64,000 bases of DNA from positions 11,098,001 through 11,162,000 of the forward strand of contig OX597816.1 of assembly GCA_951406725.2 (NCBI GenBank), written 5' to 3'. The translations under genes were made by a program, and so were the position numbers. This stretch comes from Octopus vulgaris (lineage: Eukaryota). Position 1 is the first letter of the stretch. Each line of letters opens with the position of its first letter. The notes beneath the pieces are model-generated. The model had not been told where the DNA came from. It made no database searches and saw only the letters and a program-made list of their open reading frames with translations. Positions 20,478 to 56,712 of this stretch are shown piece by piece.

Positions 20478-21197
20478 CAGGAATAGAGACCGAGACCTAT
20501 GGAAGTATGCTGTGCGTGAGAAGACCCGGCAAGACTAGTGAGGCCATAACCCGTGGCCCCTACCTGGGACGTAGTCAGTCCACCTGTGCATACCTTCCTT
20601 CTTGTGACACTTGTGAAGACCTGTTGAGGCAAGTGAAAATCAAACTAAATCAAAATAGATGAACATCAATGGAATTTGTATCTTTGTGGTACCAGTGCTG
20701 GTGGCGCATAAGAAAACCATCCGAACGTGGCTGTAGCCAGTACCGCATCGACTGGCCTCCGTGCTGTGGGCACGTAACAAACACCATCCGATCGTGGCCG
20801 TTCGCCAGCCTCGTCTGGCACCTGTGTCGGTGGCACATAAAAAACACCATCCAAGCGTGGCCATTCGCCAGCCTCGTCTGGCACCTGTGTTGGTGGCACA
20901 TAAAAAACACCATCCGAGCGTGGCCGTCTGCCAGCCTTGTCTGGCACCTGTGTCGGTGGCACATAAAAAACACCATCCGAGCGTGGCCGTTCGCCAGCCA
21001 CGTCTGGCACCTGTGTCGGTGGCACATAAAATCACCCACTACACTCTCGGAGTGGTTGGCGTTAGGAAGGGCATCCAGCTGTAGAAACACTGCCAGATCT
21101 GACTGGCCTGGTGCAGCCTTCGGGCTCCCCAGACCCCAGTTGAACCGTCCAACCCATGCTAGCATGGAAAGCGGACGTTAAACGATGATGATGATGT
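20478..21197 (+). mobile_element. RTE LINE 3' end with 63-bp tandem repeats in the 3'UTR
   Basis: ORF tail DRDLWKYAVREKTRQD*. About 4-5 units of gcacataaaaaacaccatccgagcgtggccgttcgccagcctcgtctggcacctgtgtcggtg (20700-21030). (GAT)n tail. Confidence 0.8.
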
Positions 21198-21562: not shown

Positions 21563-22810
21563 CAGGGAGGGGCAAAAGTAGGTATACAGATAAGTTCTTT
21601 CCATTTCTCCAGTTATTTTTTAGGTTAAGAATTCTATCATTTTATGTTTTCCTGGGGGCAAAAATTCTATTATATTATGTTTGCCTGGGGGCTAAAATTC
21701 TATCATTTTATGTTTTCCTGGGAGCTAAAATTCTATCATTTCATATTTTCCTGGGGGCTAAAATTCTATCATTTCATGTTTTCCTGGGGGTTAAAATTCT
21801 ATCATTTCATGTTTTCCTGGGGGTTAAAATTCTATCATTTCATGTTTTCCTGGGAGCTAAAATTCTATCATTTCATATTTTCCTGGGGGCTAAAATTCTA
21901 TCATTTCATGTTTTCCTGGGGGTTAAAATTCTATCATTTCATGTTTGCCTGGGGGCTAAAATTCTATCATTTTATGTTTTCCTGGGACCTAAAATTCTAT
22001 CATTTCATATTTTCCTGGGGGCTAAAATTCTATCATTTCATGTTTTCCTGGGGGCTAAAATTCTATTATTTTATGTTTTCCTGGGAGCTAAAATTCTATC
22101 ATTTTATGTTTTCCTGGGAGCTAAAATTCTATCATTTCATATTTTCCTGGGGGCTAAAATTCTATCATTTCATGTTTTCCTGGGGGTTAAAATTCTATTA
22201 TTTTATGTTTGCTTGGGGGGCTAAAAAGTAATAACATTGTCCTGCGTTAGACCGCCACATTATGTTGGCAAATAAATTTTACTGTAAAAAAAACTTTACT
22301 GTACAGTACTGTTACTACTCAGAAATTTAAAACCAGCTTTTTTACATTCTTTTTGACTAATTCTTTCCATGATAAAATAATTGTCCCTAATTTCAGATAT
22401 TTAATATATATGGCTGGAAATTTGACCAATGGTGAGTGAAAGTGGACCATCAAGCAGTACTGGAAAACAGAGAATGCAGAATTGGTTAGACAGAAATGGA
22501 CGGAAGAACTTCAAAGACCAGGTCCAGCAAGATTAACGGTTTATGGAATATGTGACAAATTCGAGAAGACTATGTCCATCTGCAATGCAAAGAAAAGTGG
22601 TCGACCTGTCAGTTTTACCACTGAAGAAAATGAAATGCTTATGGCTCAAGCATTCACTCAAAGTCAGTAGAAATCAAAAAAGAGGGCTTCCAATGAACTA
22701 GGCATCTCCCACAGATTCCTTCGTTGACTTACGAATTGCTTACAAATAGAGAAATGAAAAGAACTTTTCACTCATATAAAGGATTTGTTTACCTACTTTT
22801 GCCCTCACCC
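21563..22810 (+). mobile_element. Tc1/mariner deletion derivative with TIRs, internal 33-bp satellite and N-terminal transposase remnant
   Basis: Left cagggaggggcaaaagtaggtataca versus right tgtttacctacttttgccctcaccc. 22410-22730 encodes MAGNLTNGE*KWTIKQYWKT..VRQKW..PARLTVYGICDKFEKT..KKSGRP (DUF4817-like HTH). Confidence 0.75.
21625..22227. repeat. 33-bp minisatellite, about 18 units, with 4-unit higher-order periodicity
   Basis: Unit ctaaaattctatcatttcatgttttcctggggg. Confidence 0.95.
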
Positions 22811-31794: not shown

Positions 31795-32255
31795 ACAGGT
31801 GCAATTTGCATTTAAAGATAAATATTTTCTGCTTACTTTGTATGGAAAGGTAATCTTTTGTGCACTTTGCATGGAAAGATAAATACCTTGAATATTTTCA
31901 TGGAAAGATAAAATTTTTGTGCCTTTTGCATGCAAAGATAAAATTTGTTGCACACTTTGCATGCAAAGATAAAAATTTTTGCGCACTTTGCATGGGGAGA
32001 TAAAAATTTTTTGTGCACTTTGCATGGAAAGATAAAAAATAGCTTGAATTTTTTTTATGGCAAGATCAAAATTCTTTATGCATTTTGCATGCAACGATAA
32101 AACTTTTTGCATACATTGCATGGAAAGATAAAGTTTGCATGTGCAATTTGCATGGAAAGATAAACATTTCTTGTACACATTGCATGAAAAGATAGAAATT
32201 GTCAGTGCATCATCTTGCACGAAAAGATTAAAATTACTGGTGCACTTTGCAATGC
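31795..32255. repeat. Degenerate minisatellite of about 30 bp (about 14 units)
   Basis: Unit approximately gtgcactttgcatggaaagataaaaattttt. Confidence 0.85.
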
Positions 32256-48250: not shown

Positions 48251-48672
48251 TACTATCACTATCAGTATGACCATTGTCATCAGAACCACCATCAATGCCA
48301 CTTCCTCCCCTACTGCATACCAGTAAAGGAATACATATGCATTTGCTTCACCTGTCAGAAATAGCAGCTAAATATGCCTCACAACACATTTACTGTACTA
48401 TTTAAAAGAAAAAAGCACAAGATTGTATAAATATTTTGCATTGCAGATATATCTGAATAAAAGAGAAGACTACAAGTTTTCTTATAGAGGCGGAAGGGAG
48501 CTGTAAGCAGTGATAAGTAAAATTGTAATGTTATGATGATTCTGAATATGCTTGAGGCCCGTTTGAACCAGCGACCAAGCTATTCACTGCGTTTTGTCAT
48601 GGAGAATGTATCTCGTTTGTTGACAAATGTCATGTATACACCTAGATCAGCTCACAGCGTTCCCTACACAGA

Positions 48673-48720
48673 CTGTGACATGTAAGCATTTCAGAGTAGT
48701 TGTCTCCTCTTCAGTGACAG
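48673..48720 (-). ncRNA. Type I hammerhead motif, monomer 1
   Basis: Reverse strand ctgtca-CTGAAGA-ggag-acaacta-ctct-GAAA-tgcttacatg-tcacag. Confidence 0.7.
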
Positions 48721-48984
48721 ACACCAGGCAGGCAACACTATGAACTGATTGAAGAGATTGGCTCTCTTAGGCTTTTCTAGTTGCCATATGACAACAGTGA
48801 CTAGAGAGGGAGCATTAAGCAGAGATAAGTAAAATTGTAATGCTATCTTCAGTCTGAATATGCATGAGGCATGTTTGAACCAGCAAACAAGCTATTCACT
48901 GCATTTTGTCATGGAGAATATATCTCATTTGTTGACAAATGTCATGTATACACCTAGATCAGCTTAGAGCACCACCTGCCCAGA

Positions 48985-49032
48985 CTGTGAGATGTAAGCA
49001 TTTTGGAGTAGTTATCTCCTCTTCAGTCACAG
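48985..49032 (-). ncRNA. Type I hammerhead motif, monomer 2
   Basis: Reverse strand ctgtga-CTGAAGA-ggag-ataacta-ctcc-aAAA-tgcttacaTC-tcacag; stems I and II perfect, G12 mutated. Confidence 0.7.
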
Positions 49033-49199
49033 ACACCAGGCAGGTGGTGCTACAAACTGATTGAAGAGACTGGCTCTCTTACGCTTTTCCAGTAGCCATA
49101 TAGCAACTGGCAGTGCTGTGTGGTGACTCACCGTAAATAAATTACAGAAGGGGAACACTAAGCTGTAATAAGTAAAATTGTAATGTTGACATCCATGTC

Positions 49200-49451
49200 A
49201 GTGATATATAAAAGCACCAACTGATAGTGGTCGTTTGCAAGCCTCCTCTGGCCCCTGTGCCGGTGGCACATAAAAAGCACCCACTACACTTACGGAGTGG
49301 TTGGCGTTAGGAAGGTCATACAGCTGTAGAAATACTGCCAAATCAGACTGGAGCTTGGTGCAGACTCTTGGCTTCCCGACCCCGGTCGAACCGTCCAACC
49401 CATGCTAGCATGGCAAACGGACGTTAAACGATGATGATGATGATGATGATG
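49200..49451 (+). mobile_element. RTE 3' end inserted in monomer 3
   Basis: Shared RTE 3'UTR and (GAT)n tail. Confidence 0.8.
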
Positions 49452-49660
49452 AGTCTGAATATGTTTGAGGCCCATTTGAGCCAGTGAACAAGCTATTCAC
49501 TGCATTTTGTCACAGAAAATATATCCCCTTTGCTGACAAATGATGTGTATACACCTACATCTGACTGGTGTCCATGGTCAAAGAGGAGATAACTACTCTA
49601 AAATGCTTGCAACACATGGTCTGGGTAGGTGGTGCTGTGAGCTGATATCAGTGTATACAC

Positions 49661-49920
49661 ATCATCATCATCATCATCATTTAACGTCCGCTTTCCATGC
49701 TAGCATGGGTTGGACGATTTGACTGAGGACTGGTGAATCAGATGGCTGCACCAGGCTCCAATTTGATCTGGCAGAGTTTCTACAGTTGGATGCCCTTCCT
49801 AACACCAACCACTCCGAGAGTGTAGTGGGTGCTTTTACGTGCCACCAGCACGAGGGCCAGTCTGGGGGTACTGGTAACGGCCACAGTCGAAATGGTGTTT
49901 TTTACGTGCCACCTGCACGG
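49661..49920 (-). mobile_element. RTE 3' end inserted in inverted monomer 4
   Basis: Shared RTE 3'UTR and (CAT)n. Confidence 0.8.
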
Positions 49921-50299
49921 GATATATTTTCCATAACAAAATGCAGTGAATAGCTTGTTCACTGGTTCGAGCGTGCCTCAAGTATATTCGGGCTGATAAT
50001 AACATTACAAGATAGGTTTTCTGTATCATGATTGCCCTGAGATTAAACAGCAACATTGTCCTCAGCATCGGCCTGGATCTCTGTCGGTTACAACAACAAA
50101 GGTCCCAGTTAATCCAATCGATGGAACAGCCTGTTTGTGAAATTCCCGTGCATGTGGCTGTGTACTCCTCAGACATGCATACCCTGAATGTAGTTCTCAG
50201 GGAGATCCAGCCTGACACTGAATGTGACAAGGCTGGCCCCTTTGAATTACAAGTACGACTCAATTTTGTCAGTTGAGAGGGTTGGAGCAATGTGAAATG

Positions 50300-56125: not shown

Positions 56126-56712
56126 CTTGTCACTGCTCAGTGCTACCCCGTAATAATTTACTTATACTGAACCACTGTATAGCACTGCCAGTCATTGTAG
56201 GGTGACTGGAAAAGCATAAGGTGGCGAGCTGGCAGAAATGTTAACACGCCGGGCAAAATGCGTAGACGTATTTCGTCTGCTGTTACATTCTGAGTTCAAA
56301 TTCCGCCGAGGTCGACTTTGCCTTTTATCCTTTCGGGGTCGATAAATTAAGTACTAATTATGCACTGTGGTCGATATAATCGACTTAATCCATTTGTCTG
56401 TCCTTGTTTGTCCTCTCTGTGTTTAGTCCTTTGTGGACAGTAAAGAAATAGAAATAGGAAAAGCTTAAGAGAGGTAATCTCTTAATCCAGCTCGTAATGT
56501 CTGCTTAGTATCTGTGACCAATGAGGAGATGCCTACTATGAAATGCTAGCATCTCACAGTCTCAGTAGATGGCGCTGCAAACTGATCCAGGTGTATATAC
56601 ACACCATTTGTCCACAAGCGAGTTATATTCTTTGTGACATAATGCAGCGAGCAATTTGTGCTCCAGTTCGAACGTGCATCAAGCATATTCGGACTGATAA
56701 TAACGTTGCAAT
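56126..56712 (+). mobile_element. Dispersed monomer of the 48.5-50 kb hammerhead repeat, split by a SINE B (56220-56455)
   Basis: Colinear with the reverse complement of monomer 2; SINE TSD ggaaaagc(a/t)taag. Confidence 0.8.
56512..56559 (+). ncRNA. Type I hammerhead motif, dispersed monomer
   Basis: ctgtga-ccaATGA-ggag-atgccta-ctat-GAAA-TGCTAGCA-TC-tcacag; perfect stem I, palindromic ATGCTAGCAT helix III, AUC triplet. Confidence 0.7.

What the first reader, a model, noticed from the sequence alone, without database searches (positions are those of the whole stretch)
48495..50012. Retrozyme-like tandem and fold-back array of about 310-345 bp monomers carrying a type I hammerhead
Seen: three direct units (landmark periods 312 and 343 bp; the third is truncated before its HHR) and a fourth inverted unit. 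Comparing copies gives the consensus ctgtga-CTGA(A/T)GA-ggag-N7-ctcc-GAAA-tgc-t(a/t)-gca-TC-tcacag. This has a 6-bp stem I, 4-bp stem II, tiny near-palindromic helix III and AUC cleavage site, on the minus strand of units 1-2. No ORF, TIR or tRNA head is visible. Each individual copy has a different core lesion, while the consensus is complete. Established: metazoan non-LTR retrozymes are tandem repeats of a few hundred bp with one type I HHR per monomer, processed into circular RNAs and thought to be mobilised by Penelope-like RTs. Inference: a family of circular-RNA-forming, self-cleaving retroelements in this genome, possibly undescribed.
Basis: partly seen in the sequence, partly recalled or inferred. 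Interest (0 to 1): 0.88.

Follow-up and report, generated by a model that had tools for sequence, protein, structure and literature searches.

The report
Fossil hammerhead repeat with Penelope footprints
This is one old, decayed insertion of a dispersed 343-base repeat that carries a hammerhead-ribozyme motif, and its ends look like those left by Penelope-like retrotransposons, which likely copied it around the genome.

Summary
The units and the type I hammerhead motif are real. 48483-50010 is one insertion: 2.4 tandem units on the minus strand, joined head-to-head to an inverted partial unit, inside a worn 11-bp target duplication and split by two SINE-like repeats. The 343-nt monomer is a dispersed family (1081 first-look candidates). 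Across 68 loci it shows the published Penelope-like element (PLE) footprint: head-to-head inversion (41 of 68, none tail-to-tail), two fixed 3' ends about 36 nt apart, one of each in 20 of 21 double-ended loci, and target duplications in 14 of 20. That supports PLE mobilisation of a non-LTR-retrozyme-type repeat. All three hammerheads in this insertion are damaged and sampled copies are old (about 11% non-CpG divergence). Cleavage, circles and expression are untested; no autonomous partner was found. The scan noted similar PLE footprints on other repeats in two other genomes, nothing on this sequence. A new variant of a known kind.

The parts
48472..48482 (.). Left copy of a worn 11-bp target-site duplication
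   Evidence: 9 of 11 bases match 50012-50022
48483..48522 (-). 'Tail': about 40 nt between end site A and end site B; the left end of the insertion stops at site B
   Evidence: Read by eye; family tail 35-45 nt, mode 36
48483..48806 (-). Unit 1, about 31 nt shorter than a full monomer
   Evidence: 86% identical to unit 2
48673..48720 (-). Hammerhead of unit 1 (C3 at 48714; position 17 at 48679 is G, so the NUH site is lost)
48807..49150 (-). Unit 2, full 343-nt monomer, 42% GC
48985..49032 (-). Hammerhead of unit 2 (C3 at 49026, AUC site at 48991; G12A; helix III mismatch). Stem I extends on both sides past a small internal loop
   Evidence: (z -4.85 for the 87-nt stretch)
49151..49187 (-). 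Unit 3, 3' piece
49188..49448 (+). SINE-like repeat ending in (GAT)n, inserted into unit 3; ends approximate; family identity not tested
   Evidence: Many copies in the window; a 376-nt contig of run X5 joins 49186 to 49465 with 20 letters between
49446..49561 (-). Unit 3, resumed; 5'-truncated at monomer column 191, so it lacks the hammerhead
49558..49561 (.). Head-to-head inversion junction, 4-nt overlap
   Evidence: spanned by contigs of all 4 DNA runs laid
49558..49659 (+). Unit 4 (inverted arm), 5' piece
49572..49619 (+). Hammerhead of unit 4 (C3U, G5A, G12A, U16.1A)
49660..49916 (-). Second SINE-like repeat, interrupting unit 4; ends approximate
   Evidence: (I2, I8)
49917..50010 (+). 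Unit 4, 3' piece; stops at end site A (no tail)
   Evidence: (I3)
50012..50022 (.). Right copy of the target-site duplication

Best explanation
This is one old, decayed insertion of a dispersed, non-coding 343-nt repeat with a type I hammerhead motif, likely copied into place by a Penelope-like element's reverse transcriptase and endonuclease. Shown in the DNA: tandem units, a head-to-head inverted arm, two fixed 3' ends (A, and B about 36 nt further on), one of each per double-ended insertion, and 7-18-nt duplications of AT-rich target. Inferred steps: (1) tandem copies were transcribed; (2) the hammerhead likely cut the multimer and a host ligase closed 343-nt circles (about 55:45 over an uncut multimer as template); (3) a PLE protein, probably a dimer, nicked both target strands about 10-14 nt apart; (4) one target end primed copying at site A and the other at site B, both on the same RNA or its close kin, and both ran through the cleavage site and unit borders; (5) the two cDNAs were joined, often over a few shared bases, and repair made the duplication. 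CpG decay damaged the ribozymes afterwards, and at least the first SINE-like repeat landed later. The subfamily spread with a U4C core, which probably cuts slowly.
For: Dispersed family: 68 matches from 40 scored of 1081 candidates. Orientation in 68 loci: 40 head-to-head, 1 double head-to-head, 27 single orientation, 0 simple tail-to-tail. Of 112 3'-region copies, 41 end at B, 39 at A, 25 run on into the next unit, 7 unclassified; tail 36 nt in 16 of 38 measured. A+B in 20 of 21 double-ended loci (binomial p 2e-5 against 0.5); the longer arm carries B in 12 and A in 8 of 20. Target duplications above the 95th percentile of mismatched flank pairs in 14 of 20 (p 1.4e-11). This is the PLE footprint described in PMC3846280 and PMC8557442; PMC11167929 ties the tail to two internal RT start sites and shows cutting and extension of both strands at AT-rich DNA. 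Copies inside one insertion are closer than between loci: non-CpG distance 0.143 (32 tandem pairs) and 0.146 (52 opposite-arm pairs) against 0.187 (8843 pairs); rare variants shared 15-16% against 4.5%. 92 of 109 arms cross the cleavage site; 0 of 46 junction 5' ends lie at it; 32 of 109 arms exceed one monomer. Hammerhead fold on 60 natural copies: 82.8% of cells paired against 31.6-47.3% when partners are slid; 57 two-sided changes against 37.8 in shuffles. U4C: positions 4-5 read CG 37, TG 23, CA 29 of 98, like other CpG sites; CG 26, CA 16, TG 15 of 60 in 50 loci not picked by a hammerhead pattern; C at position 4 in 35 of 48 copies with loop AUAACUA against 1 of 24 with loop AUAACCA (hand count; p 2e-8). 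RT plus GIY-YIG elements with long open frames are abundant in the genome.
Against: No autonomous PLE with a related terminal repeat was found: best E 0.91 in 30 GIY-YIG loci and only an adjacent monomer copy in 16 loci of a second family. No cleavage or circle was tested. At this locus the inverted arm shares 0 rare variants with units 1-3 and lies 0.13-0.19 from them, against 0.10 between units 1 and 2, so a single template is not supported here, and later local duplication or conversion may have shaped units 1-2. Pairwise distances are not independent, so their p-values are optimistic. The count of pairs with a two-sided change is not above shuffles (16 against 14.2; 124 of 500 shuffles as high); CpG decay can mimic compensation; 21 of the 60 rows came from loci picked by a core-plus-stem II pattern. 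The hammerhead columns are hardly better kept than the rest (0.911 against 0.892). The hammerhead three-way junction was the minimum-energy fold in 0 of 7 stretches. Rfam does not match it. 6 of 20 double-ended loci show no duplication above background. The end classifier mis-scored the window's own locus, which I read by eye.
Confidence: 0.8

Rival explanations
1. Same PLE mobilisation, but the template was an uncut linear multimer and the hammerhead is a passenger; tandems are rebuilt by template jumps, with no circle.
For: Arms read through the cleavage site. The subfamily spread with U4C, which PMC3088659 says considerably lowers activity in vitro. For the anole PLE, hammerhead mutants did not affect insertion in vitro and unprocessed RNA was the main substrate (PMC11167929). 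The longest single alignment is 796 nt and only 2 of 109 arms exceed 700 nt.
Against: The hammerhead keeps a full-size fold with compensated changes between subfamilies (A-U to G-C in stem I in 5 rows; C-G to U-A in helix III in 6 rows). Related animal repeats do form circles (PMC7229834). Tandem copies are as alike as opposite arms, as a circle predicts.
Confidence: 0.35
2. These are only the 5'-truncated terminal repeats (pLTRs) of an autonomous PLE, not a separate non-autonomous family.
For: Same ends, tail and inversion as PLEs; 5' truncation of PLEs is common.
Against: Units join unit-to-unit with no coding sequence between (25 internal junctions). Three PLE proteins from this genome hit 3 of 120 monomer loci (one at E 0.049); the two clear hits lie 0.7-1 kb beyond a 3' end and belong to another family; 0 of 18 tail loci.
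Confidence: 0.1
3. A SINE-like element moved by a LINE, with the inversion made by twin priming.
For: Inverted 5' arms joined over a few shared bases and variable-length duplications also mark LINE insertion (established knowledge, recalled); 14 of 42 junctions overlap by 1-25 nt.
Against: No poly(A) or simple-repeat tail at the ends and no tRNA gene. In twin priming the two arms abut on the template; here both start at fixed sites A and B and overlap in sequence.
Confidence: 0.04
4. A fold-back DNA transposon or MITE whose inverted arms are terminal inverted repeats.
For: Outward-facing inverted arms inside a target duplication.
Against: The two ends differ by the tail, the inner junction falls at many places, the duplication length varies from 7 to 18 nt, and 27 of 68 loci have one orientation only.
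Confidence: 0.03
5. A local satellite or assembly artefact with a chance hammerhead-like string.
For: No window copy is intact; no Rfam match.
Against: 82 genome-wide matches to core, stem II and helix III against 0 for the control; both outer junctions and the inversion junction appear in contigs of independent DNA runs.
Confidence: 0.01

Closest known systems
Animal non-LTR retrozymes (Cervera and de la Pena 2020, PMC7229834; Li et al. preprint 10.64898/2026.07.22.740005)
   Same: Tandem units of 150-450 bp, under 50% GC, one type I hammerhead per unit, no ORF, target duplications longer than 4 bp, PLEs in the same genome.
   Different: Arrays are short (at most about 2.4 units in 68 loci) and old; the window's subfamily has a U4C core; no circle or cleavage shown; no homology to a local PLE terminal repeat found. 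'Inverted' occurs 0 times in the main text of PMC7229834, and the preprint parts I read do not describe tails or inverted arms.
Endonuclease-bearing Penelope-like elements (PMC3846280, PMC8557442, PMC11167929)
   Same: Partial tandems, head-to-head inverted 5'-truncated copy, 30-40-bp tail at one end, 8-10-bp duplications, AT-rich targets, hammerhead in the repeat.
   Different: No RT or GIY-YIG frame; the hammerhead is full-size (6-bp stem I plus extension, 4-bp stem II, 4-bp helix III) rather than the minimal PLE form of PMC4209133.
Non-autonomous Chlamys PLEs such as MRC1 (PMC8557442, passage)
   Same: Non-coding, head-to-tail multicopy insertions driven by a PLE.
   Different: Those generally resemble their autonomous partner at the 3' end, and most Chlamys lack a canonical hammerhead; here a hammerhead is present and no partner was found.
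U4C hammerhead variant of a viroid (cited in PMC3088659)
   Same: Same core change.
   Different: There a viroid variant; here the founder state of a genomic subfamily, and also seen in two autonomous PLE families of this genome.

Membership tests
Non-LTR retrozyme | Tandem repeats of 150-450 bp, GC under 50% | tested here: met
   343 nt, GC 0.42-0.44; 32 of 109 arms longer than one unit
Non-LTR retrozyme | One type I hammerhead per unit | tested here: met
   by motif and pairing, not by Rfam
Non-LTR retrozyme | No ORF, LTR or tRNA head | tested here: met
   primer binding site and polypurine tract not searched
Non-LTR retrozyme | Dispersed copies with target duplications longer than 4 bp | tested here: met
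   14 of 20 double-ended loci, 7-18 nt
Non-LTR retrozyme | Two consecutive units with complete hammerheads ('active' in Li et al.) | tested here: not met
   All three hammerheads in this insertion are damaged; tested for this locus only
Non-LTR retrozyme | Self-cleavage in vitro | not testable with these tools
   needs a bench assay
Non-LTR retrozyme | Expressed as linear and circular monomer RNA | tested here: inconclusive
   No RNA holder listed; contigs of two runs only guessed to be RNA cannot show it
Canonical type I hammerhead | CUGANGA core | tested here: not met
   Window's subfamily founder is CCGA(A/U)GA; met in the sister subfamily (19 of 24 TG) and in 56 of 82 otherwise intact copies
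Canonical type I hammerhead | GAAA, NUH site, helices I-III | tested here: met
   Family level:
Canonical type I hammerhead | Rfam hammerhead model score | tested here: not met
   No hammerhead row; the 6 RF00163 hits (73 scored) are other families
PLE-mobilised insertion | Head-to-head inverted 5'-truncated copy | tested here: met
   41 of 68 loci
PLE-mobilised insertion | 30-40-bp tail at one end (two RT start sites) | tested here: met
   Mode 36 nt; A+B in 20 of 21
PLE-mobilised insertion | Sequence likeness to the terminal repeat of an autonomous PLE in the genome | tested here: inconclusive
   None in 30 plus 16 PLE loci sampled from thousands of candidates
Autonomous PLE | RT plus GIY-YIG reading frame | tested here: not met

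The most novel reading that the evidence does not exclude
Each double-ended insertion was made by one PLE dimer working on one retrozyme RNA circle, its two active sites fixed to two different start sites 36 nt apart, one per target strand; and a lineage with a slowed U4C hammerhead spread this way because slow cutting keeps the template closed. The strict one-A-one-B rule would be a mechanistic constraint not seen in the in vitro PLE study, where start sites did not appear to differ between strands.
Probability: 0.3. Interest if true: 0.7.

Novelty: new variant of a known kind. Interest (0 to 1): 0.47.

Why it matters
Which enzyme moves animal retrozymes is still argued from co-occurrence and from likeness to PLE terminal repeats (PMC7229834; preprint 10.64898/2026.07.22.740005). 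Here the insertion scars themselves point to PLE machinery, and they name two exact start sites that can be tested in the existing in vitro PLE assay. The one-A-one-B rule and the kinship of the two arms limit how the inverted ends are made. U4C cores in this subfamily and in two autonomous PLE families suggest that CUGANGA-based searches undercount genomic hammerheads. The family looks extinct in the loci sampled, so host function is unlikely.

Tried and rejected
Rfam scans of the region, of six loci and of one intact copy gave only chance microRNA-type matches. RF00163 over the genome found six other hammerheads, none of this family. No RNA holder was listed; two runs only guessed to be RNA held 35 and 54 contigs, none at 99% or more, which says nothing on expression. 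Search for an autonomous partner through GIY-YIG hits, a second PLE family, hammerhead patterns and the tail pattern found none. Shared flanks next to the monomer were SINE-like repeats or further monomer sequence of other subfamilies; seven flank frames gave only zf-RVT in two. Minimum-energy folding recovers stems I and II in some copies but not the three-way junction. A pile-up of 5' ends at the cleavage site, expected for a cut linear template, is absent (0 of 46; about 1.6 expected by chance, so a weak test). No empty-site allele appeared among the joints shown. The paper on dimeric PLE hammerhead variants (Lunse et al., recalled) is not held. Earlier notes by sequence and by place: none.

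Full report
Observation. I call the hammerhead-bearing strand S; it is the minus strand for units 1-3 and the plus strand for unit 4. Self-comparison shows more than was reported: a SINE-like repeat ending in (GAT)n sits inside unit 3 (about 49188-49448), unit 3 resumes to 49561, unit 4 begins at 49558 on the other strand, a second SINE-like repeat interrupts it (about 49660-49916), and it ends at 50010. An 11-bp duplication, 9 bases matching, flanks the whole at 48472-48482 and 50012-50022. So this is one insertion. Contigs from all four DNA runs laid (coded organisms A, C, C, E) span the inversion junction with 8-15 differences, all four span the right end and three span the left end; one 376-nt contig joins unit 3 across the first SINE-like repeat with only 20 letters between (its first part differs at 27 of 213 letters, so its units may not match the window's one for one). 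The locus is therefore no assembly artefact, and the first SINE-like repeat came later.

The family. The window lies in a 2.8-Gb genome of 227 contigs; no call named the organism. The monomer gave 1081 first-look candidates, of which 40 were scored, giving 68 matches at 75-91% apart from itself. Patterns for the hammerhead core matched 69, 72 and 82 times against 0 for reversed controls. In 144 unit pieces from 68 loci, divergence from each column's commonest letter is 11.4% at non-CpG columns (range 2.6-23.1%), and CpG sites are heavily decayed. A 27-nt tail motif had 18 matches at one mismatch and none exact. No young copy was seen. The 68 loci are L001-L030 less two duplicates (L002, L006) plus L091-L130, of which 32 were picked by a hammerhead pattern.

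The hammerhead. On 60 of 73 natural stretches (13 left out for truncation, indels or missing stem I), the type I fold pairs in 82.8% of cells against 31.6-47.3% with slid partners; cells changed on both sides number 57 against 37.8 in shuffles, but the number of such pairs (16 against 14.2) is not above shuffles. Relatedness and CpG decay can inflate these measures; the clearest non-CpG compensations are A-U to G-C in stem I (5 rows) and C-G to U-A in helix III (6 rows). Stem I extends beyond a small internal loop, opposite a 7-nt loop II, the layout of full-size animal hammerheads (tertiary contact inferred, not tested). Helix III is 4 bp with a 2-nt loop and is palindromic in many copies, which would allow dimer cleavage (PMC4209133, parts 1-2 of 4 read). 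Rfam did not match it, and the three-way junction was never the minimum-energy fold in 7 stretches. All three copies in this insertion carry core lesions.

U4C. In the family, positions 4-5 read CG 37, TG 23, CA 29 of 98, the same split as other CpG sites, and CG 26, CA 16, TG 15 of 60 in 50 loci not chosen by a hammerhead pattern. With positions 4-5 left free, copies with loop AUAACUA (the window's type) have C at position 4 in 35 of 48, those with loop AUAACCA in 1 of 24 (my hand count; Fisher p 2e-8). So the window's subfamily was founded by a CCGA(A/U)GA element, and CTGA in units 1-2 is most simply CpG decay. Of 82 copies with core, stem II and helix III intact, 56 are U4, 24 are C4 and 2 other (hand count). 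PMC3088659 (passages) says U4C considerably lowers activity in vitro yet permits viroid infectivity; it was the only paper holding the word with 'hammerhead' and 'ribozyme'. Two autonomous PLE families here also carry CCGA cores.

Insertion footprint. Lining up 3' regions shows two stop points, A and B. In 68 loci, 112 3'-region copies split into 41 B, 39 A, 25 running on, 7 unclassified; the A-to-B tail is 35-45 nt, 36 in 16 of 38. Forty loci are head-to-head with both 3' ends outward, one is doubly so, 27 have one orientation, none is simply tail-to-tail. Of 21 loci with one end on each side, 20 pair A with B (p 2e-5); the longer arm carries B in 12 and A in 8 of 20. In 14 of 20, flanks hold a 7-18-nt AT-rich duplication above the 95th percentile of mismatched pairs. 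The window's locus is not among the 21: the classifier mis-scored it, and I read it by eye as B left, A right. The sister subfamily shows similar ends by eye. PMC3846280 (passages) and PMC8557442 (passages) describe this for PLEs: inverted 5'-truncated copy, 30-40-bp tail often at one end, 8-10-bp duplications. PMC11167929 (parts 1-2 of 4) shows a PLE protein cutting and extending both strands at AT-rich DNA and starting at two internal sites that bound the tail, with no apparent difference between strands.

Template. Copies within an insertion are closer to each other than to other loci, equally for tandem and opposite arms (0.143 and 0.146 against 0.187; shared rare variants 15-16% against 4.5%). 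This points to one RNA or one source locus per event, though conversion between neighbours could add to it, and the window's own inverted arm shares no rare variant with units 1-3. 92 of 109 arms cross the cleavage site and 0 of 46 junction ends lie at it, so the template was closed or uncut. A circle and an uncut multimer both fit; I put it at about 55:45, leaning on circles shown in coral and mussel (PMC7229834: abstract, passages, sections 13, 14, 17).

Partner. The genome holds many RT plus GIY-YIG elements with long open frames (148 matches of 150 scored from 6136 candidates; Pfam on two of them; a second family). None of 30 plus 16 such loci has a terminal repeat like the monomer, and PLE proteins are not 5'-linked to it in 120 plus 18 monomer loci. 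The sample is small and the partner may be extinct.

Comparison and novelty. It works like, and meets the DNA-level features of, an animal non-LTR retrozyme; the RNA-level features are untested, and this locus fails the 'active' rule of Li et al. (preprint, parts 1-3 of 5 read; supplements closed). Six literature searches showed no description of this family, of PLE tails and inverted arms on a retrozyme, or of a U4C retrozyme; subscription papers and supplements, including those of PMC7229834, were not seen and could list it. PMC6962438 (passages) reports 235 Rfam hammerhead hits in a squid without analysis. Two earlier notes of this scan report similar PLE footprints on other non-coding repeats in other genomes; I did not check them and my reading was set before. 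Verdict: real, a new variant of a known kind, probably a fossil; interest 0.47.

Noticed in passing
window 56126-56712: A second, separate and more degraded copy of the monomer on the opposite strand, with a damaged hammerhead at 56518.
   Followed up: no
L183, L185, L186 (3' UTR, about 2.9 kb after the RT-GIY-YIG frame): A young PLE family with many equal-scoring copies and 884-1008-aa frames carries a minimal hammerhead with a CCGACGA (U4C) core.
   Followed up: partly
L086, L089, L064: A second PLE family has a CCGAAGA-core hammerhead in its 3' UTR; L064 shows the CTGAAGA form.
   Followed up: partly
L081-L085, L087, L090: PLE family with a 781-aa RT-GIY-YIG frame, an upstream 330-480-aa frame and a repeat-rich 3' UTR; L079 and L090 show a hammerhead-like motif with a U3/A8-type core.
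   Followed up: partly
L188, L189, L192: Another hammerhead family with a long stem II insert, lying in inverted repeats, unrelated to this monomer; L187, L190, L191 hold further single hammerheads.
   Followed up: no
window 49188-49448, 49660-49916 and at least ten other places: Very abundant SINE-like repeat with a (GAT)n end; ARAGORN finds no tRNA in it; it also interrupts monomers in L010 and L023.
   Followed up: no
L106:1369-1758 and L148:399-1097: Sub-monomer tandem repeats: three or four partial copies in a row, suggesting local satellite-like amplification of part of the unit.
   Followed up: no
window 21630-22226, 20769-21031, 31799-32251: Minisatellites of period 33, 63 and 32.
   Followed up: no
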